DNA of 64,000 bases, taken from positions 96,001 to 160,000 of the forward strand of contig JAEOSU010000051.1 of the NCBI GenBank assembly GCA_016840165.1. Reading direction: 5' to 3'. This stretch comes from Promethearchaeota archaeon (GTDB lineage Archaea > Asgardarchaeota > Lokiarchaeia > Sigyniarchaeales > SOKP01). Positions 4,549 to 22,451 of this stretch are shown here, in pieces (positions within the stretch are counted from its first letter, which is position 1; each line of letters starts with the position of its first letter). The notes under the pieces are model-generated. The model saw only the letters and a program-made list of their open reading frames with translations. It was not told where the DNA came from and searched no databases. Made by a program: the position numbers and the translations under genes.

Positions 4549-5697
4549 TTGAATATGACCGAAACCGAGCCTGATGAAGAGACTAGAAAACTCCATTCAA
4601 ATGAAATCATTCATGTAAAACCTGAACTCTTAAATAACTTTATGATTGACACCTTTAAAGGATTAGGAGTTCCGAAAAAGGATGCAAAAATCTTGGCTGA
4701 TGTACTCCTCACTTCAGATCTTAGAGGAATTGATACTCATGGAACACAACGCTTAAAGATGTACTATGATCGTATACGAAATGGTATTTATAACAAAAGA
4801 ACCAAAATTGAAATAATAAAAGAAACCCCTACCACAGCGGTGATAGATGGTAATTTTGGGTTAGGTCCCGTGATTGCTTATAAATCTATGAAATTAGCTA
4901 TAAAGAAGGCAAAAACATATGGAATTGGTTCAGTTGCCACCCGAAATTCCACACATTTTGGTATTGCGGGTTATTACTCTCTTATGGCAATTAAAGAGGG
5001 GATGATCGGAATAACAACCACTAACACCCGACCGATGGTACCTCCTACATTTGGAGTTGAACCTCTACTTGGAACCAATCCTTTGGCTATGGGAGCTCCT
5101 AGCGATGAAGTTTTTCCGTTTATTATCGACTGTGCAACAAGTATAATTCAAAGGGGAAAAGTAGAAGTATATAATAGACTAAATCAGCCTGTCCCAGAGG
5201 GATTAATTATAACAAAAAGTGGTAAATCTGAAAACAATCCTGGAAATGTTTTACATGATTTAAATGCTTCTTCCGCAGCTCTACTTCCCTTAGGGGGAAA
5301 AGGAGAAAATACATCGGGACATAAAGGGTACGGATATGCCACCTTTATAGAGATCCTTTCTTCTGCTCTACAAGAAGGAGTTTTCTTAAGAGATACTGCT
5401 GGTATTTATGTAAATGGAAATAAGAAGTTGCCAGTGGGACACTTTTTCTTAGCAATGAATTTAGAAAATTTTATAGGTTTAGATTCTTTTAAGCATACTA
5501 CTGGAAGGATTCTACGCACACTAAGAAATTCAAAAAAAGAACCTGGAGCGAAAAGGATATATACGGCTGGAGAAAAAGAATATTATTTTGAAATCGAAAG
5601 GAAAGAAAAGGGTATTCCTATTAATAGCAGTCTTCAAAAAGATATAAAAGCAATTCAAGAAGATTTAGGTTTGGATAAATATAATTTTCCATTTTAA
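4549..5697 (+). CDS. second Ldh2/Mdh2-family oxidoreductase
   Basis: Same motifs as 493-1602 (DLRGIDTHG, NSTHFG, GTNPL, GHKGYG). Confidence 0.9.
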   Translation: MNMTETEPDEETRKLHSNEIIHVKPELLNNFMIDTFKGLGVPKKDAKILADVLLTSDLRGIDTHGTQRLKMYYDRIRNGIYNKRTKIEIIKETPTTAVIDGNFGLGPVIAYKSMKLAIKKAKTYGIGSVATRNSTHFGIAGYYSLMAIKEGMIGITTTNTRPMVPPTFGVEPLLGTNPLAMGAPSDEVFPFIIDCATSIIQRGKVEVYNRLNQPVPEGLIITKSGKSENNPGNVLHDLNASSAALLPLGGKGENTSGHKGYGYATFIEILSSALQEGVFLRDTAGIYVNGNKKLPVGHFFLAMNLENFIGLDSFKHTTGRILRTLRNSKKEPGAKRIYTAGEKEYYFEIERKEKGIPINSSLQKDIKAIQEDLGLDKYNFPF

Positions 5698-7249: not shown

Positions 7250-8482
7250 TTATTGATCTTTAGGCACTTTAATTTCAATATCAGAAAGAGGGTAAGAACT
7301 ACAAGGATGAATATATCCATATTTTTTGTCCGCGGCTCGCCTCCAATCCGAAATCGGGTTGACGAAGACTTCACCGGAAATTAATTGCGATCGGCAAAAC
7401 CCACACTCACCTGAGCGACATTTTGAAGGAGGCGCAAACTTTGCTCTTTCCATTGCGACAATTAAAGATTCTGTAGCTAATGCGGGGATTTCTTCTGTCA
7501 ATTCCCCCATATGAACAATCATCTTAAAGGATTTTTCAGCAAGTTCTTGGGGATATCCAGGAAGTCCAACCACATCCTTAACTTCTCCAAAAGCTTCTCT
7601 TCTAATACGTCTTAATGCAAGATTAAATTGTTCTAATTCCTTCTCAACGAAATTGTACATAATCTGTGGACCACATAAGAAAATAGAACTATTATCGATA
7701 TTGCAATGCTTTCTAATAATATCAGCAGTGATAAACCCTTGTTCACAACCTTCTAATGAAACCACTTCACAGCTTAAAATGTATATTATCTTGAATTTCT
7801 CTGGATATTTTTTTTCTAACGCTTTAAGTTCGTCGTAGTAAATAATATCATCCTCATTACTACTGCCATATAATAAGGTTAATTTCGCGTCAATTGTATT
7901 CTCAATAATCGCTTTTGCGATTGAACGAAAGGGAGTAATCCCCGAGCCACCTGCTATACCTACAATTTGTTTGGAATCTCTTAAGCGATCAAAGTAGAAA
8001 AAGCCTTCAGGCCCAGAACTTTCAATCTGCGTACCAACTTCCCAATGATCCCAAATATAAGATGTTAAAAATCCAGCTTCTTCCTTTCTAATGGTCAATT
8101 CATAAAAACCCTTAAGCGCATCATTAGGAGAAGATGCAATTGAATAAGGTCTCGTTATTTCTGTTCCATTTACATTAACTTTCAAGCTTAAATATTGCCC
8201 TGGCCTGAAGTAAGCGAGCTCAGTTGTACCCAAATCTTTATTTGGTATCAATTTAAAAGTTTTTGTGCTCTTTGTCTCATTTTTTATGCTCTTAATAATT
8301 AAAAATTGTCGAATAGGATGAAGCTTAGTAGCTAATTCATTCATAGGATCTGTTGTGATAGGTTCACTAGATGCTTTTTCAAAACGTTTCTTTCTACTTG
8401 TAGATAATTTCATAAAGGCAAGTAAATCGCGTGAAGTGCTTTTAATAGTAACATCCAATCTTTTATTATCTTCTTGATTCAT
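7250..8482 (-). CDS. FAD/NAD(P)-binding reductase with C-terminal 2Fe-2S domain (PaaE/Hcr-like), copy 1
   Basis: RPYS (FAD), GGSGITPF (NAD), LCGP, CRSGECGFC..C; 4-nt ATGA overlap with upstream gene. Confidence 0.9.
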   Translation of the reverse strand: MNQEDNKRLDVTIKSTSRDLLAFMKLSTSRKKRFEKASSEPITTDPMNELATKLHPIRQFLIIKSIKNETKSTKTFKLIPNKDLGTTELAYFRPGQYLSLKVNVNGTEITRPYSIASSPNDALKGFYELTIRKEEAGFLTSYIWDHWEVGTQIESSGPEGFFYFDRLRDSKQIVGIAGGSGITPFRSIAKAIIENTIDAKLTLLYGSSNEDDIIYYDELKALEKKYPEKFKIIYILSCEVVSLEGCEQGFITADIIRKHCNIDNSSIFLCGPQIMYNFVEKELEQFNLALRRIRREAFGEVKDVVGLPGYPQELAEKSFKMIVHMGELTEEIPALATESLIVAMERAKFAPPSKCRSGECGFCRSQLISGEVFVNPISDWRRAADKKYGYIHPCSSYPLSDIEIKVPKDQ

Positions 8483-10050
8483 TCAATAACCCCCTCTTTT
8501 ATTAGTGATTGTATAGTAAACAAGGCGGCTGTTTCCCCATCCTTTAATGAACTACTATAACCATGTCCTCGTAATCCAAAGCCTCCACAGAATTCTAATC
8601 CTTTAATATGCTTTTCATCATTCATATTTTGAAGCCGTGGTACGACTGAATCCCAGGAGTCTAATTCATAGCCATAAATTACCCCATTATATGTTCCAGT
8701 AAATCTTGAAAACGTTTCTGGTGTAGCAATTTCAATTTCTTCGATATGATCTCGTATTTGAGCACCAGTTGCGTTTTCGAAATTTTTAATTAATCCTTCA
8801 GCAAATTTCGTTTTAAGGTCAAAATATTCCTCGGGCTTAACATTATCCCAAGCTCCTGGACGAAACGCAGATGTGATCGAGATGATGCATGTTCCCGGTG
8901 GTGAACAATTAGGGATTGCTTTATTAAGGCATATTGATGCTTGAACTTTAGGTACTTCTAAATCAATAAGAGAATCATAAAGTTGATCTGTATCCATAGT
9001 ATCACATATAAAATAACTATAATCATTAAGTCCCAATTCATCTGCGGTGGTGTCTAATCCCATATATACCACTATAGTTGTAATACCATGTGTACGAGCA
9101 TTAATCTCCTTAAATGCAATTTCAGGAACTTCTGACTTTGGATGAATTAACTTATTATAAGTTAGTGTCTTGGATGCATTGCATATTAAATGATTTGTAT
9201 TAATCACTTCCCCATTTTGAGTTTCAATTCCCCATACTTGTCCATCTTTTACTAAAATCTTTTCTACTTTCGTATTATATTCAATTTTACCACCATATTC
9301 TCTAATTTTTGCTTCAATTGCAGAGGTATATTCATGAGATCGCATTTTTGGAATATAACCTCCTTTTAAAACATATCCATACACCATCGATGCAAAAACA
9401 GTAGTATTTGCTCTACTTGTGGGAACTCCTAAATACAACCAGTATGCATTTAATAACGCTCTTGCTTTTTTAGGAATATTAAGTGCATCTTGGACGTCAT
9501 CAATAGGATATGCAGCAGTCCTTAAAAAATTCGTATGTTCCCGTAATAGTACGTCCTGGTCAGGGTTGCCTCTCATTCTACCTACATAATTTGTAGCCTC
9601 ATCAATTTCTTTTCCTAATTGGAAAAAATTTTTTATTGATTGTTTGGATCCTGGGACTTGTCTCTCAATAGCCTCAATAAAATCCTCAATACCGAAAGGT
9701 AATACAGCATCAATTTTCTCTTCTGGATTAGTCACTATCAAGCGATAAGCCTCAGGTACGGGTACAAATTCTGTATCTATTTGTAATTTATCTTGAAGAA
9801 GTCTCCGAATCCCTCCATTCTGTTCTGGCGTCCCATAATCATATAATTCGTGCAAAGATGTCTCAAATTCGAATCTTCCTCTCACATAACTCGATGCGAA
9901 GCCACCAGGTAGATTATGTTGTTCAAGTAGAAGAACTTTTGCTCCCTTCATCGCAACACGAGCCGCTGCAACCAAACCCCCATTTCCTGCCCCGATTACG
10001 ATGACATCATAAGTTCTATTATCTTTTCCTTTATTATTTTGTTCATTCAT
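8479..10050 (-). CDS. phytoene desaturase/retinol saturase (CrtI/RetSat)-family FAD oxidoreductase, copy 1
   Basis: IGAGNGGL dinucleotide fold, EQHNLPGG, RGRFEFE, ATPETF, GVIYG. Confidence 0.85.
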   Translation of the reverse strand: MNEQNNKGKDNRTYDVIVIGAGNGGLVAAARVAMKGAKVLLLEQHNLPGGFASSYVRGRFEFETSLHELYDYGTPEQNGGIRRLLQDKLQIDTEFVPVPEAYRLIVTNPEEKIDAVLPFGIEDFIEAIERQVPGSKQSIKNFFQLGKEIDEATNYVGRMRGNPDQDVLLREHTNFLRTAAYPIDDVQDALNIPKKARALLNAYWLYLGVPTSRANTTVFASMVYGYVLKGGYIPKMRSHEYTSAIEAKIREYGGKIEYNTKVEKILVKDGQVWGIETQNGEVINTNHLICNASKTLTYNKLIHPKSEVPEIAFKEINARTHGITTIVVYMGLDTTADELGLNDYSYFICDTMDTDQLYDSLIDLEVPKVQASICLNKAIPNCSPPGTCIISITSAFRPGAWDNVKPEEYFDLKTKFAEGLIKNFENATGAQIRDHIEEIEIATPETFSRFTGTYNGVIYGYELDSWDSVVPRLQNMNDEKHIKGLEFCGGFGLRGHGYSSSLKDGETAALFTIQSLIKEGVIE

Positions 10051-10234
10051 TAAATCTAACCTTTTAGAAAGATAAATTAATAGAAATTATTTCAATAAAT
10101 CTTTTTCTTAATTAATACATTATTTTTCTAAGAAGTAGAAAATATTAATAAACTAAAAGATCATAAATCTATAATTAAATAGCAATAATTCAAATTAAAA
10201 AAAAGAATATAGTTAATTTTTAGGTGAAAATAAG

Positions 10235-13201
10235 TTGAAAACATTAACTGTTGATGAAAAGATTGAGGACTTTAAAAGTCAACTAAATTTGCTGGCTATG
10301 ATATTTGATACCCGCAGAAAAATGCGTAGAGAGATCCAAAATGAGAAAACGGGTTTTACTTTTAATGCAAAATATCAATTTAAAACGAAAGATGATAAAG
10401 TTAATCTTTATGTTATTTTTAAAGATGGTAAAATGACAGTTTATGATGGTAAAATTGATGATCCAAACATTACCATCTATTACAAAGATAAAGAAACCTT
10501 GGCAAACCTTTATGATAAGAGTGCTGATGAATCTCTTGATTATCTCTTAACAAATGAAATGGGTTATGATGGTAATATGTCCTATCTTACCAAGTTCTCT
10601 TATCTTACTTCACTTGTCATGGGTGCCAAAATTAAAGATTATAAAGGACCAGAAAATCGATTAATGTACCCCATTGAAGACATTGATAAAGGAGAGAAGA
10701 GTAGGAAGATTAAAAATGAAAGTCTGAATTATAAAGTCGATAATGTTAAGGCATTGGATGATCCTTATTTAGCAAAATACACTTTAGATGACTTTCCTCG
10801 CTTAAAATATTTAAAAAATAGACGATTTGCCTTAAAACCAGCAATTTGCGTCGAAAGGGCAAAGTTAGTAACTGAATATCATCAGGAGAATGGATTTGAA
10901 ACAGATAAATCTGGAAAACCTTTTGATCCAGAACTAAGACAGGCGGGAGCAGTAAATTATATTATGACTCATAAAGAACCAATTATTCATGATCATCATT
11001 TAATTGCAGGATCTACAACTTCAAAAGAAGTGGGTATCCCTATGTATCCCGAATTAATTGCAACTGCAATCTGGCCTGAACTAAAAACAATCTGTGATCG
11101 CGAACTTAATCCTAACGATATTTCTGATAAAGATGCAGATATTTTAAGCTTAGAAGTGTTCCCCTATTGGATGGAGCGAAATGTCAGAGAGCATTGTAGA
11201 AATAAATTCAACAATCCTAAATCACAAAAGTTGGAGGAAGGATGGGTTTTCTATTTTATGATGAAGACCAACGCAATAAGCCATACGGTTCCCGGTTTTC
11301 CAATGGTTCTCAACGAGGGATTATTGAGTGTTAAACAAAAAGCCGCTAATTTGGAGCAGAAAGCTACATCCTCTGAAGAGAAGAATTTTTATAATGCTAT
11401 ACAGATAACCATTGATGGAGTTATTACGTATTCAAATCATTTAAGTGACCATGCTTTAAAGCTTGCTGAAACATTAGACCCTAATGATCCAAAACAAGAG
11501 GTACGCATAGAAGAATTAAAACAAATCTCTAAGATCTGTAAAAAGGTACCAGCCCATCCTGCTGAGACGTTACATGAAGCTATTCAATCAATATGGACAA
11601 GCTTTGTTTGCTTACATTGTGAAAATGCGAATTCTGCACTGTCCATAGGGCGATTAGATCAAATGTTACAGCCATTTTTCCTTAAAGAGATACAAAAAGC
11701 TTCAAATGACAGGGAAAGAGAAGATGTAGTGAAAAAGGCAATCGAACTTGTAGGATCACTATTTGTTAGAATAAATGATCATGATCCATTAATGCCAAAC
11801 GTAGGATGGAAGCTATTTGGCGGTAGTTCTTCGGATGATACTGTAACCGTCGGTGGAGTCGATAAAAACGGTGATAATGCGGTAAATGATATGACTTACA
11901 TTATTTTAAAAACAAATGAGATGTTAGGATTCCAAGATCCCAATATGAATGCCCGATACCATTCAGGGATTAATTCAAAAGAATATCTGCGTCGCTTATG
12001 CGAAGTAAACGTTAATATGGGTGCCTCACCTAGCATCCATAACGATAAAACAATGATCGAAGCATTAATCCATGAGGGATTTTCACTTGAGGATGCTCGA
12101 GGTTGGGCTGCTACAGGTTGTGTAGAGCCTACGATTGTAGGCAAACATTACGGTCACACAAATTGTATGTTATTAAATTTAGTTGCCCCACTCGAAATGG
12201 CATTAAACAATGGTGCTATTCCCTTAACAGGGGATTTAATAGGTCCAGCGACAGGAGACACAAGATCTGCGTTTTCTACCTTTCAAGATTTCTACGATGC
12301 TTACAAAACTCAACTAAAATATTTAGCTGAACAATCCATAGAGATTAATAACTACCTTGGAGAATCACATAAATATGTACATCCTACTCCTTTATTATCA
12401 GCATTTTATGAGGGACCTTTAGAAAAGGGAAAAGATCTAATTCACGGCGGCGCCATTTATAACACTTCTGGGGTTGCTCTTGTAGCCTTAACAGATGTTG
12501 TTGATAGCTTGTTAGTGATCAAGGATCTAGTCTATGAAAAGAAAGAATTTGATTTTGCAACCTTAATGGATGCTATCGAACATAATTTTGAAAATGAATA
12601 TGAATCTATTTTGAAAAAAATAGAAAATGTACCAAAATTCGGCAGCGGTGAGGATGGTACCATTGAACTCGCTCAAGATTTGATTGATTACTGCTATGAA
12701 ATATATAATTCTGCTAAAAATTATAGAGGTGGGAAATATTTAGTGGGTTATTGGTCTATTAGCTATCATACTGGTTTTGGAATGCTTACTGGGGCATTGC
12801 CTTCTGGAAGGAAAAAAGGAAAAGCCTTAACTCCTGGCTTAACACCTGCCCCAGGAACTACTGATATCTTACTTCCGAGTATTCGAAGTGTTGGTAGTTT
12901 AAATCATTTAAAGATGGCCAACAATGCTTCTTATAATGTAAAATTAGTCCCCCATCCTGGTGATTCACATAAAGAAACTCTTGACCTATTTAATAGTTAT
13001 GTTCAAAGCTTTTTCGATCTAGGAGGCATGCAGTGGCAATTTAATGTAATTAAAACAGAAACTCTTAGAAATGCAATGGAGCATCCGATGGATTATCGTT
13101 GGTTACTAGTAAGAGTGTCGGGCTATAATGCTTACTTTACGAAACTCAATAAAAATATGCAATTAGAAATAATTGAACGACATGAGTATCAATCAAAATA
13201 A
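10235..13201 (+). CDS. glycyl radical enzyme (PFL2/dehydratase class) with N-terminal SCP2-like domain
   Basis: SIGRLDQ, single-Cys loop GCVEP, Gly loop LLVRVSGY; N-terminal ~130 aa has an SCP2 pattern; TTG start preceded by AGGTGA. Confidence 0.88.
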   Translation: MKTLTVDEKIEDFKSQLNLLAMIFDTRRKMRREIQNEKTGFTFNAKYQFKTKDDKVNLYVIFKDGKMTVYDGKIDDPNITIYYKDKETLANLYDKSADESLDYLLTNEMGYDGNMSYLTKFSYLTSLVMGAKIKDYKGPENRLMYPIEDIDKGEKSRKIKNESLNYKVDNVKALDDPYLAKYTLDDFPRLKYLKNRRFALKPAICVERAKLVTEYHQENGFETDKSGKPFDPELRQAGAVNYIMTHKEPIIHDHHLIAGSTTSKEVGIPMYPELIATAIWPELKTICDRELNPNDISDKDADILSLEVFPYWMERNVREHCRNKFNNPKSQKLEEGWVFYFMMKTNAISHTVPGFPMVLNEGLLSVKQKAANLEQKATSSEEKNFYNAIQITIDGVITYSNHLSDHALKLAETLDPNDPKQEVRIEELKQISKICKKVPAHPAETLHEAIQSIWTSFVCLHCENANSALSIGRLDQMLQPFFLKEIQKASNDREREDVVKKAIELVGSLFVRINDHDPLMPNVGWKLFGGSSSDDTVTVGGVDKNGDNAVNDMTYIILKTNEMLGFQDPNMNARYHSGINSKEYLRRLCEVNVNMGASPSIHNDKTMIEALIHEGFSLEDARGWAATGCVEPTIVGKHYGHTNCMLLNLVAPLEMALNNGAIPLTGDLIGPATGDTRSAFSTFQDFYDAYKTQLKYLAEQSIEINNYLGESHKYVHPTPLLSAFYEGPLEKGKDLIHGGAIYNTSGVALVALTDVVDSLLVIKDLVYEKKEFDFATLMDAIEHNFENEYESILKKIENVPKFGSGEDGTIELAQDLIDYCYEIYNSAKNYRGGKYLVGYWSISYHTGFGMLTGALPSGRKKGKALTPGLTPAPGTTDILLPSIRSVGSLNHLKMANNASYNVKLVPHPGDSHKETLDLFNSYVQSFFDLGGMQWQFNVIKTETLRNAMEHPMDYRWLLVRVSGYNAYFTKLNKNMQLEIIERHEYQSK

Positions 13202-13241
13202 ATAATTTTTATTTTTTAATTTTTAAAATTTTAGAATGTAA

Positions 13242-14138
13242 ATGAAAATTAAACCTTTAGTAGTAGATATTAAGAGAAATGCCTTAGATGATGGTCCGGG
13301 GATAAGAACATTAATCTTTTTCAAAGGCTGTCCATTATCTTGTGCTTGGTGTCAAAATCCAGAAGCTAAATCTCCAACAAAAGAGCTATATTTTGATCGC
13401 GATAAATGTATTGAATGCGAGATGTGCTTAACGAGATGTGAACAGAATGCTATAGATTTTGAATATGAATATCGTATTCATCGAAATCTGTGCAATTTAT
13501 GCGGTGCTTGTATTAATATCTGCCCAAACGATGCTTTAAAATTTGTAGGTAAAGAATACAGCATTGATGAATTAGTAAAGATTATATTAAAGGATAAAGT
13601 CTTTTTTGATAATTCTAATGGAGGGGTAACCCTTTCGGGAGGAGAACCGCTTTACCATATTGATTATGTCCATGATTTATTAATTAAATTAAAAAAAAAT
13701 AAGATTCATACCTGTATAGAGACATGTGGACTCTATAATCAGTCAGAATTTAATGAACTTATTTTACCATACATAGATTTAATCTATTTTGATTTGAAGA
13801 TTTTTAATCCAGAATTACATGCTCAATATTGTCAAGTCTCAAATCAAAAAATTCTTGAAAATTTCGAAGATTTAATTAAGAAACATAAAGAACTACTGCC
13901 ACGGATTCCGCTAATTCCTAATATAACCGATACCCCTCAAAATTTAACGGATTTAGCAAAATATTTAAAATCATTAAATATCAAAACTATTGGACTACTC
14001 CCTTATAATCCATTATGGATCTCAAAATCCGAGAAAATTGGAATAAGGCCAATGTATAATTATTCTCGGTGGTTAAACAAAGATGAGAAAGAAAAAATTA
14101 AACTCATTTTTTCTGAATTTGAATTTAAAGATTTTTAA
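13242..14138 (+). CDS. glycyl-radical activating enzyme (radical SAM with ferredoxin insert)
   Basis: DGPGIRT, GCPLSCAWCQNPE, two CxxCxxCxxxC motifs, GGVTLSGGEP. Confidence 0.93.
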   Translation: MKIKPLVVDIKRNALDDGPGIRTLIFFKGCPLSCAWCQNPEAKSPTKELYFDRDKCIECEMCLTRCEQNAIDFEYEYRIHRNLCNLCGACINICPNDALKFVGKEYSIDELVKIILKDKVFFDNSNGGVTLSGGEPLYHIDYVHDLLIKLKKNKIHTCIETCGLYNQSEFNELILPYIDLIYFDLKIFNPELHAQYCQVSNQKILENFEDLIKKHKELLPRIPLIPNITDTPQNLTDLAKYLKSLNIKTIGLLPYNPLWISKSEKIGIRPMYNYSRWLNKDEKEKIKLIFSEFEFKDF

Positions 14139-14262
14139 ATCTTTAGGAGATTTTTTTGAAGTTTATACCCTCTTAAAATAAGATATCCTCTCTTTTTTTT
14201 AATATTTATATAGTTTTAAAGTCTAAAAAATATTAATGACAAAATATTAGGAGATAAATTAT

Positions 14263-16050
14263 ATGGGAAAAATCTTAAGAATTGATTTAGGATCTAAGAA
14301 CTTTACCACAGAAGATGTAGATCCTGAATTAGAAGAAAAATATATTGGTGGAGCGGGAGTTGCAGCTGCAATCTTCATCAAGGAAGTTCCTCCAAATATA
14401 GATCCATATGATCCTCAAAACCTCCTTATCTTTTCTGTTGGTCCAATTTGTGGAACTGCAATCCCCTACTGTGGTAGACATTTTGTTATGGCAAAATCTC
14501 CCTTAACTAGAATTCTAGGTGAATCTTCTGCTGGTGGATTTTTTGGAAATGAATTAAGAAGAACGGGGTATGATCATATTATCATTAGCGGAGTGAGTGA
14601 GAGCCCTGTCTACTTATGGATTTATGACGATAATGTTGAAATTCGAGACGCTACAAAGCTATGGGGTAAAGGAACTAGAGAGACAGAGGATCTTCTATGC
14701 GCAGAAATTGATGATGATAAAGCAAAGATTGCATCAATTGGTCCTGCTGGAGAAAATCTTGTGAAATTTTCCTCAATTATGAATGAGAAAGGTCATGCTG
14801 CAGGACGTTGCGGGATGGGTGCTGTAATGGGCAGTAAAAATTTAAAAGCAATAGTTGTGCGTGGTACTAAAGATGTACCCATCGATAATAGAGATAAATT
14901 AATGGATTCAGCCCGAAAAATAAGAACAATTGGAAAAATTTTCCCCCTTGCTGTAGCAACGCAAGAATTAGGTACCCCTGGACATATGGATAATTATGTA
15001 AGTGCAGGAGATGTACCGATCAAGAATTTTACTCTAAGTAGATGGAAAGGAACAAAAAATATTGGATATTATGCACTAAAAGACAACTATGAAATAAAAC
15101 ATTATTCATGTTTTAATTGTGGGACTGCTTGTAGAGGAAATATAAATTTCAATAATGATTGGGTTGAGTGGCCAGAATATGAATTCTTAGCAATGTTGGG
15201 TTCTAACTTACTTGTGGATGATTTAGATGCCTTAGTAAGATGGAATATTATGGTTAATGATTATGGAATGGATTGCATTTCTCTTGGTGGTATTCTCGCT
15301 GTTTTTCTTGAAGCAATAGAGAGAAAGTTAATTGACATAAATTATGAGGAACTTGGTTTCGAAAAGGATCCTGAATCGGATGAATATATCATATGGAGTG
15401 CTATTTCAGCAATTGAGAATTTAATCACATTAACTGCATTTCGAAAGGAGATTGGCGATGATTTAGCTGATGGAGTACGACTCTTTTGTCAAAAATACAG
15501 TTTACCAGATGATCTTAATATTCAGGGAAAAGGTCTTGAGGTTCCTGCTCATGAACCTCGCTCAAATAATATGACTGCTTTAGATCTCGCTACATCTTCT
15601 CGTGGGGCATATCATGGTTTTGAACCTCTTCATTTATCATTTGCCGCCAATTTAAAAAAGGAAATAGGCCTTACAGAGCGAATTGATCCTTATAATACTA
15701 TTGAATCTGTAAGCGCAGTAAAGAAAATCCAAGATGCGTCTGAGGCTTATACTGCAACTGGTGGTTGCATTTTTGGGTTTTGGTATTCATCAGAGATTAC
15801 ACCATGGGTGGATGCTGTAAATGCAATTACTGGAAGATCCTACACAGTTGAAGATTGGGTCCAGATTGGAGAAAACTTATTTAATATGAAACGGAATTAT
15901 AATGAAAAATGCGGAATTACGAAAAAAGATGATTCACTTGGTTCAAGATTCTCTATACCTATTCCAAAAGGAGGAACTAAGAAAAACGTCCCTCCACTTA
16001 AAGAAATGCTTCAGAATTATTATTCTCTTAGAGGATGGAATATGGATTGA
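14263..16050 (+). CDS. aor: tungsten-dependent aldehyde:ferredoxin oxidoreductase (AOR family)
   Basis: KSPLT, IGPAGENLV, GRCGMGAVMGSKNLKA, CFNCGTAC, PEYE, DYGMDCIS. Confidence 0.88.
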   Translation: MGKILRIDLGSKNFTTEDVDPELEEKYIGGAGVAAAIFIKEVPPNIDPYDPQNLLIFSVGPICGTAIPYCGRHFVMAKSPLTRILGESSAGGFFGNELRRTGYDHIIISGVSESPVYLWIYDDNVEIRDATKLWGKGTRETEDLLCAEIDDDKAKIASIGPAGENLVKFSSIMNEKGHAAGRCGMGAVMGSKNLKAIVVRGTKDVPIDNRDKLMDSARKIRTIGKIFPLAVATQELGTPGHMDNYVSAGDVPIKNFTLSRWKGTKNIGYYALKDNYEIKHYSCFNCGTACRGNINFNNDWVEWPEYEFLAMLGSNLLVDDLDALVRWNIMVNDYGMDCISLGGILAVFLEAIERKLIDINYEELGFEKDPESDEYIIWSAISAIENLITLTAFRKEIGDDLADGVRLFCQKYSLPDDLNIQGKGLEVPAHEPRSNNMTALDLATSSRGAYHGFEPLHLSFAANLKKEIGLTERIDPYNTIESVSAVKKIQDASEAYTATGGCIFGFWYSSEITPWVDAVNAITGRSYTVEDWVQIGENLFNMKRNYNEKCGITKKDDSLGSRFSIPIPKGGTKKNVPPLKEMLQNYYSLRGWNMD

Positions 16051-16083
16051 TAAAAGTAAAATAAATTACTTTTTTTTATTTAA

Positions 16084-17313
16084 TTAGCTTCTTGGTATTT
16101 CCATCTCAAGATTGCTTAATGGATATGAGGAACAAGGGTGAAAGTATTTCAATATTTTATCGGCTGTTCTCCTCCCATCATTTTTTGGATTTACAAATAT
16201 CTCACCAGAAATTAATTCCGAACGGCAAAAACCACATTGGCCGGATCGACATACCGAGGGAGGAGCCAATTTGGCTCGTTCCATTGCTACTAATACACTT
16301 TCATGTGCGTTAGCGGGGATATCTTTTGATAAATTTCCTATCCTTACTTTGATTTTAAATGATTTTTCTGCCATTTTCTTTGGATAATTAGGTAAAGAAA
16401 CTATATCCTTCACTTCTCCATACACTTCTTTTCGAATACGATTCGTTGGTAAGTTAAATTTACTCAATTCCTTATCAATAAAATCATACATTACTTGAGG
16501 GCCACAAATAAAGACGGAACTATTACTAAAGTCACAATATTTTTCAATTATACCTGCGGTAATAAATCCCTGTTCACAACCGTCTAAGCTAACCTCCTCA
16601 CAACTTAAAACATGGACAATTTTAATTTTCTCAGGATCTCTACTTTCATATTCCTTAAATTCATCATAAAATAGAATATCATCCTCTTCACTACTACCAT
16701 AAAGTAGAGTTAAACTGATATTTAATTTACCCTCCATAATCTCTTTTGCCATTGATCTAAATGGGGTTATCCCCGAACCGCCCGCTATTCCGATGACTTC
16801 TTTTAAGTCTCGAATGGGATCATAATAAAAATAACCATTAGGTCCAGAACTCTTTATTTTAGTATTTTTCTCCCAATTCTCCCATACATATTCTGTAAGG
16901 AATCCGTGGTCTTCTTTTCGAATCGTAATCTCATAAAAACCTCTTAACGCATCTGAAGGAGATGAAGATATAGAGTATGGACGTGTGATTGGAGTTCCAT
17001 CTACATCAACTTTTAAACTGAGGAACTGCCCCGCTCTGAAATAAGCAACTTTATCCGTACTTGAATCTGGATCGGGAATAAGCCTGTAGGTTTTAGCAGA
17101 TTTAGTTTCTTCTTTTATTTCACTAATCATTAAATTTTGAATTGAAGGATGTAGAAGTTGAGCTAGATTATTTACAGGATCAGATTTTATAAACTCCTCA
17201 GATGCTTTGTCAATATTTTTTCTACGTTGTGAAGTCAAATTTTTAAATGCTAATAAATCTCGAATATTTCCCTTTACTGATACCTTCAATTTCTGCTTTT
17301 GATCTTCTTTCAC
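16084..17313 (-). CDS. FAD/NAD(P)-binding reductase with C-terminal 2Fe-2S domain, copy 2
   Basis: RPYS, GGSGITPF, ICGP, CRSGQCGFC; collinear paralog of 7250-8482; GTGA overlap with upstream gene. Confidence 0.9.
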   Translation of the reverse strand: MKEDQKQKLKVSVKGNIRDLLAFKNLTSQRRKNIDKASEEFIKSDPVNNLAQLLHPSIQNLMISEIKEETKSAKTYRLIPDPDSSTDKVAYFRAGQFLSLKVDVDGTPITRPYSISSSPSDALRGFYEITIRKEDHGFLTEYVWENWEKNTKIKSSGPNGYFYYDPIRDLKEVIGIAGGSGITPFRSMAKEIMEGKLNISLTLLYGSSEEDDILFYDEFKEYESRDPEKIKIVHVLSCEEVSLDGCEQGFITAGIIEKYCDFSNSSVFICGPQVMYDFIDKELSKFNLPTNRIRKEVYGEVKDIVSLPNYPKKMAEKSFKIKVRIGNLSKDIPANAHESVLVAMERAKLAPPSVCRSGQCGFCRSELISGEIFVNPKNDGRRTADKILKYFHPCSSYPLSNLEMEIPRS

Positions 17314-18890
17314 TCAGAATCACCTGTTTCATTTAATTCTTGTAAAGTTAAAAAGGCGGCTATTTGACCAGAGAGTAAAGCATTTGTATAACTCTGGCAA
17401 TTTGCAGAAAAGCCTCCACAAAATTCTAGACCTTTAATATATTTTTCATTGTTCATTTCCATTAATCTGGGCATAAAAGAATCCCAAGGGTCTGTTTCAT
17501 ATCCGTATGCCGAACCTCCGAATGTTCCCGTATATCTTGCTAATGTTTGGGGCGTAGCAATTTCAATCTCTTCAATGTGTTCTCTTATAGAGGTTTTCGT
17601 TGCAAATTCAAAGGTATTTATTAAATGTCGAGCGATTTTATTTTTCAAATTAAAATAATCTTCAGAGCTTACATCCTTCCATGCTTCGGGAAGAAAAAAA
17701 GCTGTAATTGTAAGAATACATGTACCTGGTGGAGAGCAATCAGGGTTTACTTTATTTAAGCATATTGTTGCCTGAGCTTTAGGAGGATTTAATGTTTTAA
17801 AGGATTCATAAATTTCTTCAGTATTAGTTGTATCATAAATATGGTAACTATAATTTTCAATTCCTAATTCTTCAGCACTCGCATTCAAACCCAAATATAC
17901 AACAAAACAACTGATTGCATGTCGTCGGGCATTCATGGTTTTTAAAGCTTGTTTCGGTACCTCATTTTTAGGAAATATTAAATTATTATAAACTAATGTA
18001 GGGGATGCATTTGAAATCACGTGGTTTGTCTTAATTTTATCTCCTTGATTAGTTTCTACGCCTATAACTTGCCTATCTTTAACAATTACTTTATTTACTT
18101 TCGTGTTATAAAGGATTTTACCCCCTTTTTCTCTAATCAAGGATTCTAGGGCCGCAGTATATCCGTGGGAGCGATATTTTGGGACATATGCTTTTCGGAT
18201 TAAAAAATAATAATGCATAGCAGCATAAAAAGTAAAGTTAGCCCTGCTCGTTGGAATGCCAATATAGCACCAATAGGCATCTAAAATGTTTTGAGCCTTT
18301 TTAGGAATCTTTAATGCGTCATTTACCTCATCTAAAGTATATGGTGCCGTTTTTAAAAAGTTCTTATAATTTGCAATAAGTATATCTTTTTCTGGATTTC
18401 CTTCCGATTCAGTAATATAGCTAATTGCATTGGTAATTTCTTCTGAAAGTAATATATAATTTCGAATAGATTCCTCACTTCCAGGAACTTCTCTTTCCAT
18501 CATAGTTATATATTCTTCTCTTCCAAATGGAACAAGAACGTCTAATTTTTCATTTGGGTCATTAATAATTAATCGAAATGCTTCAGGAATCTCTACGAAC
18601 TCGATATTTAATCCCAAATCTTCCTCAAAAAGCTTCCTTATGGCTCCTTTATTTGATTTAGGGCCATAATCGCACAACTCATGCAATGTGCCCTCAAACT
18701 CAAATCGTCCTCGAACAAAACTAGTTGCAAATCCTCCAAGTAAATTATGTTGTTCGCAGAGCACAACTTTAGCACCTTCGATTGCCAATTGGGCTGCAGC
18801 AATCAATCCTCCATTTCCTCCCCCTATTACAACCGCATCAAAATCCTCCTTTAAAATCTGATCACTGATTTCTTCCACCATATAAGACAC
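17310..18890 (-). CDS. CrtI/RetSat-family FAD oxidoreductase, copy 2
   Basis: IGGGNGGL, EQHNLLGG, RGRFEFE, ATPQT; collinear paralog of 8479-10050. Confidence 0.85.
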   Translation of the reverse strand: MSYMVEEISDQILKEDFDAVVIGGGNGGLIAAAQLAIEGAKVVLCEQHNLLGGFATSFVRGRFEFEGTLHELCDYGPKSNKGAIRKLFEEDLGLNIEFVEIPEAFRLIINDPNEKLDVLVPFGREEYITMMEREVPGSEESIRNYILLSEEITNAISYITESEGNPEKDILIANYKNFLKTAPYTLDEVNDALKIPKKAQNILDAYWCYIGIPTSRANFTFYAAMHYYFLIRKAYVPKYRSHGYTAALESLIREKGGKILYNTKVNKVIVKDRQVIGVETNQGDKIKTNHVISNASPTLVYNNLIFPKNEVPKQALKTMNARRHAISCFVVYLGLNASAEELGIENYSYHIYDTTNTEEIYESFKTLNPPKAQATICLNKVNPDCSPPGTCILTITAFFLPEAWKDVSSEDYFNLKNKIARHLINTFEFATKTSIREHIEEIEIATPQTLARYTGTFGGSAYGYETDPWDSFMPRLMEMNNEKYIKGLEFCGGFSANCQSYTNALLSGQIAAFLTLQELNETGDSE

Positions 18891-18976: not shown

Positions 18977-19867
18977 TCACTTTTTCGCAGGTGATGCATA
19001 ACAATATGCACAATTATGTTTACAACGAAATATTCCTGTATATCCTCCAATATCCTTTGATTTATAACAACCACAATACTTTCTCTGACCGGTATCTCTA
19101 ACCTTTTCTATTGGTTCGCCAATTATGGTTTCAATCTTATTAGCATCAATACAATGAGCCTGTGAAATGCCTTTCATTGATAAAAGTTCTGGTTGACAAC
19201 ATGCTTTCATTTTTATTCCTCTCATACAACAAATTTCTATTAATTCGGTTAAGATTTTTTGTTTTTCTTCTGTGTTCAATTCGATTGGGATAAATCCCCT
19301 ATAATTCATTCTAGATTGTACCTTATTGTAAATCGTTGCGAAAGAGAAAATTAATTCATTTATCCCGTACTTAGAAAGGTGTTCTAAAATATACTCAAAT
19401 TTATCTAAATTATTTTTAAGCTCATCATTTCCTTTTTTTTTATAAAAAATAATTGGATCGAATCTAAAACTAAGTGCTGAGATACCAAAGGTATCAATTA
19501 GCCATTTGGATTGTTTGAAACGCTCTTCTAGAGATACTGAAATGCCTTTCTCTAATTCTGAAGGAGAATTAATGGTAAATTGGAATAAATGGCCCTTATA
19601 GGCATTAAATAGAGATTTGTTCGCTTGATAGACTTTAATCCACTCATGAAAGTTTTTACTCCACCATACCCATGCTTTTACATGTTTAGGTGATAATGTG
19701 ACTCGTGATATTTGTTTTCTATTAAATGGGTTAACAACGTCAACATAACCCGCCTTAATTTTACTGATTACCCAATCCATTAAAAAGGCAGGTATATCAG
19801 TTCTTCTAGAACATGAAATTATTTCTGATTTAATTAATTTAAGTTTATATTCTGAAATGTTTACCAT
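18977..19867 (-). CDS. DUF1848-family protein
   Basis: IISCSRRTDIPAF, V.NPFN, RFDPI, C-terminal CGC..SKDIG...CKHNCAYCYA. Confidence 0.85.
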   Translation of the reverse strand: MVNISEYKLKLIKSEIISCSRRTDIPAFLMDWVISKIKAGYVDVVNPFNRKQISRVTLSPKHVKAWVWWSKNFHEWIKVYQANKSLFNAYKGHLFQFTINSPSELEKGISVSLEERFKQSKWLIDTFGISALSFRFDPIIFYKKKGNDELKNNLDKFEYILEHLSKYGINELIFSFATIYNKVQSRMNYRGFIPIELNTEEKQKILTELIEICCMRGIKMKACCQPELLSMKGISQAHCIDANKIETIIGEPIEKVRDTGQRKYCGCYKSKDIGGYTGIFRCKHNCAYCYASPAKK

Positions 19868-19884
19868 ACCAACTCTATTAATTT

Positions 19885-21462
19885 TTAGTTTAAATATGCC
19901 AACATTGATAAAATGAATAATTCTTCGGTAATATCTTCCGAAGATTTACGCTTGAGCTCTTCCTTTAGGTGATTATAGATCATTAAATGTGGATTAAAAA
20001 ACGCAAAACCTTGATTGATATCTTCTTCTAATACTTCTCGAAAATGAGGATTTAGCCATATTTCAAATGGCCCTGAACTATGCTCGGCTTTATATTGAAT
20101 TTGAAACTCTTTTTTTAGTATGAAAATAACCTCATAGACTGTTTTACAAATCTGGAGTAATTTTTCAGAATTTTCCCTATAGAAATAATGAATTGGGACA
20201 GGTAGACGCATATGAAGAAGTAATCCCTTTCCCTTGCGAAAATTAATGTGACCATATCCGAAAATAACTTTATGAAAACCACTTTTCGTGAAAATAGAAT
20301 TGATAGTATTTATGATATCGGGTAAAAATTTAGGTTGGCTTAAGATGTCTTCAAATCCTGGAAATGCAATATGATTAGTATCATCTTCAGAAGTTTGAAC
20401 TAATATGGCAAATGAAGACCTTTCTTGCATATATTTTTGGTATTCTTCCTCGGTCAGTTTAGTCCAATAACATGCACATTCACCTATCATGGTTTTAATA
20501 AAATTACTAACAATATTCCTCCTTCCTTTAATTAAAACGGCCCAATTTACTTTAAAATCCTCGGATTGCTTCTTAGCTGGGGCTAATTTACCAAACTCTC
20601 CTGGTAATTTTATCGGTGAAGTTACAAATTCACTCACGAGGGGGAGTATCCTAGCATCTAATACTTTTTGTAATCCATTAAATGCTGAAGTTAAATCCTC
20701 ACCAAATAATATTGCCTCTTCTAAGTTTACATCTGGCTGATATAATCTGAAGTTTGCACTTAATACGATTCCATAAAAACCATTACCACCTACAATCTTT
20801 TCAAATAACGAATCATTTCTATCAATTGCGATAATCTCACCATTTGGGAGCATAACTCTCATATCAATAATCCATTCAATTGCTGCTCCTAATTTACCTG
20901 ATGTTATGCCACTAGCATTTGATGCAATTAATCCTCCAACGCGAACTGGTAATTTGAAAGAACTTGCTGGTTGAACTGGAAAAATATATCTTCCTTTTGA
21001 TTCGAAGTTCACCACCTTTATCAAATCGGATACTAAGGTGCTCTGTTCTGCATAAACCTTCTTTTGTGATAGATCAAGTATAATTTGCTCGGAATCGGAA
21101 TGCATAGCCTCAAGATCAACTAAAGCACCGAAATTTGCGAAACCTCCTGATAGACCCGTTTTTCCAGACGCAAAAGTTATCGGTATTTTAAAGCTTTGTG
21201 ATTGAATTACAAAATCTCGTAGTTGATCTTCATTTCTTGGACGAAAAATTATATAAGGTTTTAAACTCAAAAGTGATGGGTCTCTGATTGTACCTGAGCT
21301 AATATCATTATCGACTATAATTATTTTCCCAGAATTTAACAAATTTTTTTCGGTAGTAGTGAGGGATTTAGCAAATTGAAATCCTTTTTTTACCATAACA
21401 TCTATAAACGCCTGCCAAGGTAATTTTTTTTGTAACTCTTCGGAGATACTCAGCATCAACAT
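19885..21462 (-). CDS. FAD-linked oxidoreductase (GlcD/D-lactate dehydrogenase-like, divergent)
   Basis: GKTGLSGG, VGGLIASNASG, GGNGFYGIV, C-terminal AEH. Confidence 0.75.
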   Translation of the reverse strand: MLMLSISEELQKKLPWQAFIDVMVKKGFQFAKSLTTTEKNLLNSGKIIIVDNDISSGTIRDPSLLSLKPYIIFRPRNEDQLRDFVIQSQSFKIPITFASGKTGLSGGFANFGALVDLEAMHSDSEQIILDLSQKKVYAEQSTLVSDLIKVVNFESKGRYIFPVQPASSFKLPVRVGGLIASNASGITSGKLGAAIEWIIDMRVMLPNGEIIAIDRNDSLFEKIVGGNGFYGIVLSANFRLYQPDVNLEEAILFGEDLTSAFNGLQKVLDARILPLVSEFVTSPIKLPGEFGKLAPAKKQSEDFKVNWAVLIKGRRNIVSNFIKTMIGECACYWTKLTEEEYQKYMQERSSFAILVQTSEDDTNHIAFPGFEDILSQPKFLPDIINTINSIFTKSGFHKVIFGYGHINFRKGKGLLLHMRLPVPIHYFYRENSEKLLQICKTVYEVIFILKKEFQIQYKAEHSSGPFEIWLNPHFREVLEEDINQGFAFFNPHLMIYNHLKEELKRKSSEDITEELFILSMLAYLN

Positions 21463-21476
21463 CCCTATTTTCTTAA

Positions 21477-22346: not shown

Positions 22347-22451
22347 CTTTTTTTAATAAATTAGGACATTAATATTTAATTATTTAATTTCATCAATCTG
22401 GGCTTATCCCAGACATTTATTATTTTATATTGATAAAAATCCTCCATTTCT

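What the first reader, a model, noticed from the sequence alone, without database searches (positions are those of the whole stretch)
7250..18890. Candidate undescribed anaerobic lipid/isoprenoid-processing system: SCP2-GRE + activase + AOR, bracketed by twin CrtI-like/reductase cassettes
Seen: [reductase<-CrtI-like] then [SCP2-GRE->activase->AOR] then [reductase<-CrtI-like]. The GRE unit is divergent from cassette 1 across about 185 bp and convergent with cassette 2. Established: GCVEP-type GREs (glycerol/diol dehydratase, CutC, IslA) release aldehydes; AOR oxidises aldehydes to acids; CrtI/RetSat flavoproteins act on C=C bonds of long hydrophobic chains; SCP2 domains bind lipids and acyl chains. 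Inference: a pathway that saturates or isomerises a hydrophobic substrate, radically eliminates a hydroxyl or head group to an aldehyde, and oxidises it to an acid for beta-oxidation (an acyl-CoA ligase is at 34.7 kb). I know of no characterised pathway with this combination. The substrate cannot be determined from sequence.
Basis: partly seen in the sequence, partly recalled or inferred. Interest (0 to 1): 0.85.

Follow-up and report, generated by a model that had tools for sequence, protein, structure and literature searches.

The report
Lipid-domain glycyl radical enzyme operon
An Asgard archaeon carries an untested oxygen-sensitive radical enzyme fused to a lipid-carrier domain, kept with its activator and an aldehyde oxidiser, which probably turns a fatty alcohol-type compound into an acid without oxygen; the two flanking flavoenzyme pairs are real two-protein enzymes but only lineage-specific neighbours.

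Summary
The N-terminal extension of the glycyl radical enzyme (GRE) has an SCP2 fold in a predicted model, although Pfam misses its cut-off.

The conserved unit is GRE, activase and aldehyde:ferredoxin oxidoreductase (AOR). Among 42 related loci with 4 kb or more on both sides, an activase lies within 4 kb in 30 and an AOR in 18. The AORs belong to six different subgroups, in archaea and bacteria. Bacterial operons add an acyl-CoA ligase, an enoyl-CoA hydratase and an acyl-CoA dehydrogenase.

The active site keeps the Cys-x-Glu motif and the His of 1,2-eliminases. It fails every named equivalog model (HypD, CutC and others). It also lacks the marks of alkylsuccinate synthases.

The CrtI-like/reductase pairs are predicted to bind each other (ipSAE 0.94, best control 0.00). 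They adjoin the GRE in only one Asgard subclade, which also shares unrelated synteny. They are often present without the GRE, and bacteria lack them.

So this is an uncharacterised lipid-directed GRE-AOR module, not a proven seven-gene system. The substrate is unknown.

This scan has met the same SCP2-GRE family before in other genomes (e1-5114056, e1-916754, e1-4189036). No paper I could search describes it.

The parts
10235..13201 (+). SCP2-fused glycyl radical enzyme, 988 aa, with a TTG start and a GGTGA 7 nt upstream. It carries the catalytic Cys629-Val-Glu631 (CXE motif), His350, and Gly963 in RVSGY.
   Evidence: Domains from Pfam and NCBIfam. Homologues cover 100% of its length at 62-96% identity. 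H350, C629, E631, H641-T642-N643 and G963 are invariant in 21 family members. Residue mapping rests on PDB alignments. Start region read.
10235..10624 (+). SCP2-fold domain, residues about 1-130 of the GRE.
   Evidence: AF2 model, core pLDDT 84-94. The top 40 or so Foldseek PDB hits are all SCP2-fold proteins. Pfam SCP2 falls just below its cut-off. Stand-alone homologues sit between a GRE and its activase in other loci.
10625..10798 (+). Conserved linker between the SCP2 domain and the catalytic barrel, residues about 131-188.
   Evidence: Conserved in sequence across the family but modelled with low confidence.
13242..14138 (+). Radical-SAM GRE-activating enzyme with two extra ferredoxin-like cluster motifs.
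   Evidence: TIGR02494, 297.7 bits against a cut-off of 174.35. It lies directly downstream of the GRE in 50 of 80 loci, and in 30 of the 42 loci with full flanks.
14263..16050 (+). Tungsten-type aldehyde:ferredoxin oxidoreductase.
   Evidence: AFOR_N and AFOR_C cover the full length. Best PDB matches are AOR 9mqx and 1aor, E 2e-116 and 1e-112. An AOR neighbours the GRE in 28 of 80 loci.
8479..10050 (-). CrtI/CrtISO-like FAD protein, cassette 1, divergent from the GRE.
   Evidence: Pfam Amino_oxidase and NAD_binding_8. TIGR02734 scores 91 bits against a cut-off of 238. Best PDB match is 4rep.
7250..8482 (-). FNR-type FAD/NAD(P)H reductase with a C-terminal 2Fe-2S domain and a family-less N-terminal arm of about 55 aa, cassette 1.
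   Evidence: Domains. It is predicted to bind the flavoprotein mainly through residues 9-55.
17310..18890 (-). CrtI-like FAD protein, cassette 2, 56% identical to cassette 1.
16084..17313 (-). FNR/2Fe-2S reductase, cassette 2, 62% identical to cassette 1. It is convergent with the AOR.

Best explanation
The functional unit is the three-gene plus-strand operon at 10235-16050.

Proposed mechanism:
1. The activase puts a radical on Gly963 of the GRE.
2. Cys629 carries that radical to the carbinol carbon of a water-insoluble, lipid-like substrate, which the fused SCP2 domain holds or hands over.
3. Glu631 takes the hydroxyl proton, and His350 protonates a leaving group on the neighbouring carbon. 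This is a 1,2-elimination, as in glycerol and propanediol dehydratases.
4. The product is a hydrophobic aldehyde.
5. The AOR oxidises the aldehyde to the acid and reduces ferredoxin.
6. The acid is then activated to a CoA ester and beta-oxidised.

The two CrtI-like/reductase pairs are genuine two-component NAD(P)H-linked flavoenzymes typical of Asgard archaea. They probably also work on hydrophobic chains. They are lineage-specific neighbours, not obligate parts of the GRE module.

Shown here: the domain content, the SCP2 fold in a predicted model, the conserved residues, the gene linkage, and the predicted crt-red binding.

Inferred: the chemistry, the hydrophobic nature of the substrate, the aldehyde product and the direction of flow.
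For: - SCP2 fold of residues 1-130.
- The same domain occurs as a separate 153-155-aa gene between a GRE and its activase. Fused and split forms in different genomes argue that the two parts work together.
- The CXE motif and the His matching GD His164 / PD His166 are invariant. The 2026 GRE review ties CXE to 1,2-eliminases and isomerases, and assigns the Glu and His roles in GD (PMC13450708).
- Neighbourhoods of 80 species-level loci: activase in 50, AOR in 28, enoyl-CoA hydratase in 12, TetR in 8 bacterial loci, AMP-ligase in 5.
- AOR adjacency occurs in all three GRE clades, involves six AOR subgroups at 50% identity, and appears in both orientations.
- A Desulfobacterales operon reads GRE2, acyl-CoA ligase, ECH, AOR, ACAD, SCP2-GRE. 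ECH-ACAD-GRE occurs in Desulfosudaceae.
- Host taxa are fatty-acid and hydrocarbon degraders: Desulfatibacillum, Syntrophomonadaceae, Desulfosudaceae.
- The crt1-red1 complex model gives ipSAE 0.94 against a best control of 0.00. That mark was reached by 58 of 80 solved complexes and 2 of 110 mismatched pairs. The three runs agree in at least 98% of contacts, and the partner pLDDT is at least 88.
- A third crt/red pair in the same genome sits among thiolase/DUF35, ECH, Fe-ADH, acyl-CoA ligase and two stand-alone SCP2 genes.
Against: - No substrate, product or activity has been measured for any member of the family.
- Pfam SCP2 is below its cut-off.
- No lipid-binding cavity could be inspected. 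The full-length model was poor.
- The position of GD Asp447 (Cys+14) is an invariant Asn here, so the chemistry may differ from diol dehydration.
- Many loci, including Desulfatibacillum, show the GRE alone.
- The genome has six GREs but only two activases, so this activase may serve others too.
- AOR genes are numerous in these genomes: about nine AOR-family loci in this one.
- SCP2 domains can also bind acyl-CoA or act as structural modules.
Confidence: 0.55

Rival explanations
1. All seven genes form one pathway in which the CrtI-like/reductase pairs saturate or isomerise the hydrophobic substrate before or after the GRE step.
For: - The first cassette and the GRE are divergently arranged across 184 bp, an arrangement kept in 15 loci.
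- Within the archaeal family, 21 of 24 genomes with the GRE also hold a crt1/2-type gene, against 13 of about 45 without the GRE.
- In a sister genus the two co-occur although unlinked: 5 of 5 genomes with the GRE against 2 of 17 without it.
- A paralogous pair lies in a beta-oxidation/SCP2 cluster.
Against: - Adjacency has a single origin, in a subclade that also shares the unrelated cation-efflux (CDF) and Ldh_2 genes.
- The pair is absent from all bacterial loci, and from seven Asgard loci that keep GRE-activase-AOR.
- At least 13 genomes have the pair without the GRE, and 7 have the GRE without the pair.
- Within the window's own genus the association is weak (13/2 against 8/5).
- The counts are not corrected for phylogeny.
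- Unlinked pairs have their own conserved neighbours, a polyferredoxin-like gene and an MBL-fold gene.
- The intergenic region shows no conserved operator.
Confidence: 0.2
2. The GRE is a small-molecule eliminase, for example of a diol or an amino alcohol. The SCP2-like domain serves oligomerisation, membrane tethering or regulation rather than lipid delivery.
For: - All characterised GRE eliminases act on small polar molecules (PMC13450708).
- Sequence similarity to SCP2 is marginal.
- Some relatives stand alone, with no lipid genes nearby.
Against: - The SCP2 fold match is consistent and specific.
- The GRE is repeatedly joined to ECH, ACAD, acyl-CoA ligase and TetR genes.
- No microcompartment genes were seen next to it.
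- All named equivalog models fail.
Confidence: 0.15
3. The GRE is an alkyl- or benzylsuccinate synthase. Database names for some members say so, and a paper has called other Asgard GREs by that name.
For: - Members of this family are deposited as 'benzylsuccinate synthase alpha subunit', for example OQC53467.1 in the reference set of PMC8163825 (suppl. file 30).
- Host taxa include hydrocarbon degraders.
Against: - Genuine AssA1 has Ser at Cys+2 and the fumarate-binding Arg at Cys+15 (PMC12358834). The window enzyme has Glu631 and Cys644 at those positions.
- No small-subunit genes fit in the 40-bp and 124-bp gaps.
- PDB scores are 345-382 bits to eliminases, against 221 bits to MasD and 179 bits to TutD.
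- An AOR partner has no role in fumarate addition.
Confidence: 0.03

Closest known systems
B12-independent glycerol dehydratase (C. butyricum, PDB 1R8W) and 1,2-propanediol dehydratase (R. inulinivorans, 5I2A), the GRE C-O 1,2-eliminases
   Same: - The same ten-stranded barrel, Gly loop (RVSGY) and Cys loop (GCVEP).
- Glu at Cys+2, and a His aligned with GD His164 / PD His166.
- A dedicated activase with extra Fe-S motifs.
- An aldehyde is the expected product.
   Different: - About 30% identity. NCBIfam PFL2-3 scores 551 bits, below its 678 cut-off.
- A 188-residue N-terminal SCP2 domain plus linker is added.
- Asn stands in place of GD Asp447.
- The partner is an AOR rather than a CoA-acylating aldehyde dehydrogenase or a 1,3-propanediol dehydrogenase.
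- No microcompartment genes are present.
- The neighbours are beta-oxidation genes.
Archaeoglobus fulgidus PFL2/PflD (PDB 2F3O), an archaeal GRE of debated function
   Same: It is the best-scoring solved structure (382 bits). It is archaeal, has GCVE, and is uncharacterised (PMC13450708).
   Different: It has no SCP2 domain. It keeps Asp at Cys+14 where this family has Asn. Identity is only about 33-38%.
Enzymes with an SCP2 domain: alkylsulfatase SdsA1 (2CFU), peroxisomal MFE-2 SCP2L (1IKT), UbiJ (6H6P)
   Same: An SCP2 fold is attached to, or works with, an enzyme that handles long alkyl, acyl or isoprenoid chains. All three are among the top fold matches.
   Different: In those proteins the domain is C-terminal or free, and the catalytic partner is a hydrolase, a dehydrogenase/hydratase or a hydroxylase complex. 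None is a radical enzyme.
CrtI / CrtISO / CrtN-type FAD oxidoreductases (PDB 4DGK, 4REP)
   Same: A Rossmann FAD fold and an Amino_oxidase domain. The family is known for acting on C=C bonds of long isoprenoid chains.
   Different: - Scores are far below every NCBIfam cut-off.
- The gene is translationally coupled to, and the protein is predicted to bind, a dedicated FNR/2Fe-2S reductase. Classical CrtI does not have such a partner.
- The host is an anaerobe.

Membership tests
Glycyl radical enzyme superfamily (PFL-like) | PFL-like barrel plus a C-terminal glycyl radical domain with RVxG[FWY] | tested here: met
   PF02901 scores 534 bits and PF01228 82 bits. RVSGY with Gly963 is invariant in the family.
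Glycyl radical enzyme superfamily (PFL-like) | A cognate radical-SAM activase | tested here: met
   TIGR02494 is above its cut-off. The activase gene is directly downstream in 50 of 80 loci.
GRE 1,2-eliminases (and isomerases) | [quoted passage not shown] | tested here: met
   C629-V-E631 is invariant. The motif is defined in PMC13450708.
GRE 1,2-eliminases (and isomerases) | General acid His equivalent to GD His164 | tested here: met
   His350 aligns with PD His166 in GVGHV, and with the His of HypD and PFL2. CutC has Asp at this position.
GRE 1,2-eliminases (and isomerases) | Membership of a characterised subfamily: HypD, CutC, HpsG, HpfG, PFL2-3/GD | tested here: not met
   Scores against cut-offs: HypD 434 / 1100, CutC 422 / 1050, HpsG 378 / 1000, HpfG 363 / 1000, PFL2-3 551 / 678.
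GRE 1,2-eliminases (and isomerases) | Catalyses elimination to a carbonyl product | not testable with these tools
   The only evidence is indirect: AOR adjacency.
X-succinate synthases (Ass/Mas/Bss) | Fumarate-binding Arg at Cys+15 and no Glu at Cys+2 | tested here: not met
   AssA1 reads C-M-S...R at Cys+15. BSS has C493/R508 and MASS has C477/R492. The window enzyme has Glu631 and Cys644.
X-succinate synthases (Ass/Mas/Bss) | Small accessory subunit genes next to the catalytic subunit | tested here: not met
   The gaps are 40 bp and 124 bp, with no small ORF between the GRE, activase and AOR genes.
SCP2 sterol-carrier family | Pfam PF02036 at its gathering score | tested here: not met
   20.1 bits against 21.3 on the isolated N-terminus. 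No hit is reported on the whole protein.
SCP2 sterol-carrier family | SCP2 alpha/beta fold | tested here: met
   This rests on a predicted model, not a solved structure. Foldseek gives probability 1.00 and TM by target 0.6-0.7 to UbiJ-SCP2, AF1534, SCP2L and insect SCP2.
SCP2 sterol-carrier family | Binds a lipid in a hydrophobic tunnel | not testable with these tools
   Model coordinates cannot be inspected, and there is no assay.
Aldehyde:ferredoxin oxidoreductase family | AFOR_N and AFOR_C domains over the full length, and close to biochemically defined AORs | tested here: met
   274 and 268 bits. PDB 9mqx and 1aor match at E 2e-116 and 1e-112.
CrtI/phytoene desaturase family | NCBIfam TIGR02734 subfamily cut-off | tested here: not met
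   91 and 90 bits against a cut-off of 238. Only the generic Amino_oxidase and FAD domains pass.

The most novel reading that the evidence does not exclude
The SCP2-GRE could be an anaerobic ether-lipid lyase.

Proposed route:
1. The enzyme abstracts the C1 hydrogen of a glycerol ether core lipid (archaeol or 1-O-alkylglycerol). It eliminates the vicinal alkoxy or hydroxy group, giving a 3-alkoxypropanal.
2. The AOR oxidises this to 3-alkoxypropionate.
3. A ligase makes the CoA ester.
4. The neighbouring crotonase releases the second alcohol by retro-Michael elimination.

This would be the first oxygen-independent route for breaking glycerol ether bonds. It would explain why Asgard archaea, sulfate reducers and syntrophs in sediments share the enzyme. 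Nothing found here excludes this reading, and nothing tests it directly.
Probability: 0.1. Interest if true: 0.9.

Novelty: new variant of a known kind. Interest (0 to 1): 0.62.

Why it matters
- Every GRE eliminase characterised so far acts on a small polar molecule. According to a 2026 review (PMC13450708), every PFL-like GRE with a known function is bacterial.
- This family carries a lipid-carrier domain. It is conserved at 47-96% identity across Asgard archaea, Desulfobacterota and Syntrophomonadaceae, and is wired to AOR and beta-oxidation genes. It would extend glycyl-radical chemistry to hydrophobic substrates and give the first functional handle on an archaeal GRE.
- It bears on what Asgard archaea eat in anoxic sediments, and on how long-chain diols or ether lipids are broken down without oxygen.
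- It corrects database names. Members are filed as formate acetyltransferase or benzylsuccinate synthase, and those names feed hydrocarbon-degradation claims.
- The CrtI-like/reductase pair is itself an undescribed two-component flavoenzyme that is common in Asgard genomes.

Tried and rejected
- **Full-length AF2 model of the GRE.** Made from a 21-row alignment, it came out at mean pLDDT 59. It was unusable for docking the SCP2 domain or reading the pocket.
- **Shared operator.** Aligning the crt1-GRE intergenic regions of 15 loci showed no convincing shared operator.
- **XSS comparison within Desulfatibacillum.** I looked for an XSS in the D. alkenivorans DSM 16219 genome. Its CVY-type GREs (L099, L101) turned out not to be XSSs. 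I used the AssA1 sequence from a paper supplement instead.
- **Hermodarchaeota 'Ass/Bss'.** I checked whether the Hermodarchaeota 'Ass/Bss' proteins of PMC8163825 belong to this family. They do not: their Cys loops read CVT, CVEPAVPGRSFTSSD and CLENTM. Only that paper's reference set holds members of this family.
- **The acyl-CoA ligase at 34.7 kb.** It is not syntenic with the cluster. Homologous ligases do adjoin the GRE in a few other loci.
- **Calcineurin-like phosphoesterases.** They recur near the GRE in only one Asgard clade, in Desulfatibacillum and in one split-form locus. This is too patchy to build on.
- **The genes upstream of cassette 2.** The 829-aa protein, TIM-barrel, FAD_binding_4 and DUF1848 genes look carbohydrate-related or are unknown. 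They gave no clue to the substrate.
- **Literature.** Searches for SCP2 or sterol carrier together with glycyl radical found nothing relevant.

Full report
**Observation**

Pfam and NCBIfam give the stated domains.
- There are two pairs of an FNR-type FAD/NAD(P)H reductase carrying a C-terminal 2Fe-2S domain and a CrtI/CrtISO-like flavoprotein. Within each pair the genes overlap by 4 nt.
- Between the pairs lie a 988-aa glycyl radical enzyme (GRE), its radical-SAM activase and an aldehyde:ferredoxin oxidoreductase (AOR).
- The divergent gap is 184 bp and the convergent gap is 33 bp.
- The two cassettes are old paralogues, 62% and 56% identical. A third pair, 34-36% identical, lies on another contig.
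- The window comes from a 3.6-Mb Asgard genome of about 32% GC.

**The SCP2 claim**

Pfam does not report SCP2 on the whole protein. On the isolated N-terminus it gives 20.1 bits, just under the 21.3 cut-off. I therefore modelled residues 1-195 with a 49-row alignment. The core, residues about 10-130, is confident. The best 40 or so Foldseek matches in the PDB are all SCP2-fold proteins: UbiJ-SCP2, AF1534, the SCP2 domain of alkylsulfatases, MFE-2 SCP2L, and insect and yeast SCP2. The fold is confirmed in a model. Lipid binding is not tested.

A profile of this domain finds 313 cluster representatives among 1.84 billion. They include full-length GREs of about 1000 aa and many stand-alone proteins of about 150 aa. 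Two of three such small proteins that I looked up are encoded between an 815-aa GRE and a radical-SAM activase; the third lay on a 1.3-kb contig too short to show neighbours. The same module therefore occurs both fused and split, which argues that it works with the GRE.

**What kind of GRE**

The family is well conserved. Its 988-aa members are 62-96% identical in Asgard archaea and in Desulfatibacillum and Desulfomonilia. A further clade at 47-53% identity occurs in Bacillota, Syntrophomonadaceae and some Asgard archaea.

Invariant residues include Gly963 (RVSGY), Cys629-Val-Glu631, His350 and His641-Thr-Asn643.

Alignments to solved structures give three mappings:
- His350 falls on PD His166 and GD His164.
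- Glu631 falls on the CXE glutamate.
- Asn643 falls on the position of GD Asp447.

The 2026 review states that all 1,2-eliminases and the GRE isomerases keep CXE. It also states that in GD the Glu deprotonates the C1 hydroxyl while His164 protonates the leaving hydroxyl (PMC13450708).

Every named equivalog model fails by a wide margin, whereas another GRE in the same genome passes the HypD model (1273 bits against 1100). The enzyme is therefore eliminase-like but belongs to no characterised subfamily.

It is not an X-succinate synthase.
- Genuine AssA1 has Ser at Cys+2 and the fumarate-binding Arg at Cys+15. Here these positions are Glu and Cys.
- There are no small-subunit genes.
- PDB scores favour eliminases.

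Public names for members are only generic or wrong: 'formate acetyltransferase', and in one reference set 'benzylsuccinate synthase'.

**Is it a system?**

I fetched 80 species-level loci that all carry the N-domain, clustered their neighbours and annotated the recurrent ones.

| Neighbour | Loci of 80 |
|---|---|
| Activase | 50 |
| AOR | 28 |
| Enoyl-CoA hydratase | 12 |
| TetR (bacteria only, directly upstream) | 8 |
| AMP-ligase | 5 |
| Long acyl-CoA dehydrogenase abutting the GRE | 3 |

Among the 42 loci with 4 kb or more on both sides, 30 have the activase and 18 the AOR within 4 kb.

On a tree of 71 full-length GREs, AOR adjacency appears in all three clades. The AORs fall into six groups at 50% identity and occur in both orientations. 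That means repeated recruitment rather than one inherited arrangement. For scale, this genome has about nine AOR-family loci in 3.6 Mb, so I roughly estimate chance adjacency at a few per cent at most.

A Desulfobacterales operon reads V4R regulator, second GRE, acyl-CoA ligase, ECH, AOR, ACAD, SCP2-GRE.

**The cassettes**

The CrtI-like/reductase pair is next to the GRE in 15-16 loci. All of them are in one Asgard subclade that also shares the unrelated cation-efflux (CDF) transporter and Ldh_2 genes. A second cassette occurs in only two other loci. Seven closely related Asgard loci read AlaRS-GRE-activase-AOR with no cassette. No bacterial locus has one.

In a sample of 301 genomes of the phylum, the GRE N-domain is found in 33 and a crt1/2-type gene in about 36.
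- Within the family: 21 genomes have both, 3 only the GRE, 13 only the pair.
- In the window's own genus the association is weak.
- In a sister genus the two co-occur while unlinked.
- These counts are not corrected for phylogeny.

Unlinked pairs keep their own neighbours. The third pair in this genome lies among thiolase/DUF35, ECH, Fe-ADH, acyl-CoA ligase and two stand-alone SCP2 genes, which fits a hydrophobic substrate for the flavoenzyme family.

A controlled complex prediction supports binding of crt1 to red1.
- ipSAE was 0.94 against a best control of 0.00. That mark was reached by 58 of 80 solved complexes and 2 of 110 mismatched pairs.
- The three runs agree in at least 98% of contacts, and the partner pLDDT is at least 88.
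- My own alignments were used, so the calibration counts hold only roughly.
- The interface is made mainly by the reductase's N-terminal arm, which matches no family.

The pairs are thus real two-component enzymes, but a functional tie to the GRE remains possible rather than shown.

**Mechanism and rivals**

The best reading (confidence about 0.55) is this. The activase generates the glycyl radical. The thiyl radical abstracts the carbinol hydrogen of a lipid-like alcohol presented by the SCP2 domain. Glu631 and His350 drive a 1,2-elimination to a hydrophobic aldehyde. The AOR oxidises the aldehyde and reduces ferredoxin. The acid then enters beta-oxidation.

The rivals are:
- the full seven-gene pathway (0.2);
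- a small-molecule eliminase with a non-lipid role for the domain (0.15);
- an X-succinate synthase (0.03).

The most novel reading not excluded is anaerobic cleavage of glycerol ether lipids, in which the neighbouring crotonase would release the second alcohol from a 3-alkoxypropionyl-CoA. I put this at about 0.1.

**Known or new**

No paper in the searchable library links a GRE with an SCP2 domain. The 2026 review lists no such enzyme and notes that archaeal GREs lack assigned functions.

Earlier notes of this scan had already met the same family in other genomes, with a TetR and an AOR, with an aminotransferase/acyl-ACP-reductase fusion, and with a separate SCP2 partner. I confirmed the AOR link and the split form independently here.

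I rate it a new variant of a known kind. The biochemical class is established. The fused lipid-carrier domain, the AOR and beta-oxidation wiring and the archaeal host are undescribed.

Noticed in passing
G000 contig C27:31503-33857 (locus L005:1087-3465, minus strand): The same Asgard genome encodes a GRE that passes NCBI's equivalog model for trans-4-hydroxy-L-proline dehydratase (1273 bits against a cut-off of 1100). The genome holds six GREs in all but only two activases. A 2026 review says that all PFL-like GREs of known function are bacterial.
   Followed up: partly
G000 contig C54:122000-142000 (locus L095): The third CrtI-like/reductase pair sits in a cluster with three thiolases and their DUF35 (ChsH2-like) partners, two enoyl-CoA hydratases, an Fe-alcohol dehydrogenase, two stand-alone SCP2 proteins and two acyl-CoA ligases. 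No acyl-CoA dehydrogenase is obvious. This is a candidate lipid or isoprenoid beta-oxidation cluster.
   Followed up: partly
window 18977-24941, minus strand: The genes directly upstream of cassette 2 are closely spaced on the same strand (gaps of 14-105 bp). They encode an 829-aa protein with no Pfam family (its language-model neighbours are GH127/GH76-like hypothetical proteins), a xylose-isomerase-like TIM barrel, a 525-aa FAD_binding_4 flavoprotein and DUF1848. DUF1848 and the flavoprotein recur downstream of the GRE in 9-13 related Asgard loci. DUF1848 also sits directly after the GRE in a Desulfosudaceae locus (L051).
   Followed up: partly
window 3222-4328 (-), 39347-40477 (-), and paralogues elsewhere in the genome: A family of proteins of about 365 aa has an unannotated N-terminal 280 residues and two C-terminal 4Fe-4S motifs. 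It has eight or more copies in the genome. A homologue, followed by an MBL-fold gene, flanks every unlinked crt/red operon that I examined (L091-L093, L096).
   Followed up: no
L098 and L100 (Desulfatibacillum alkenivorans DSM 16219); protein P0122: D. alkenivorans DSM 16219 has about ten GRE genes, two of them paralogues of this SCP2-GRE family (1002 and 1034 aa open frames). The copy on a 6.5-Mb Desulfatibacillum aliphaticivorans contig is recorded as only 493 aa, so it is possibly truncated.
   Followed up: no
PMC8163825, supplementary files 12 and 30: The five Hermodarchaeota 'Ass/Bss' proteins lack the AssA Cys-loop pattern (C-M-S ... Arg at Cys+15). One has CVEP followed by Asp at Cys+14, like A. 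fulgidus PFL2. Others have CVT or CLE loops, and the CLENTM loop resembles that of the GRE on contig C36 of this genome (L010). The published hydrocarbon-activation call may need revisiting.
   Followed up: partly
window 493-1602 and 4549-5697: Two Ldh_2-family (sulfolactate/malate dehydrogenase-like) paralogues, 65% identical, flank a WD40 beta-propeller gene and a polyferredoxin-like gene. Both copies are kept in the synteny block upstream of the GRE in related Asgard loci.
   Followed up: no
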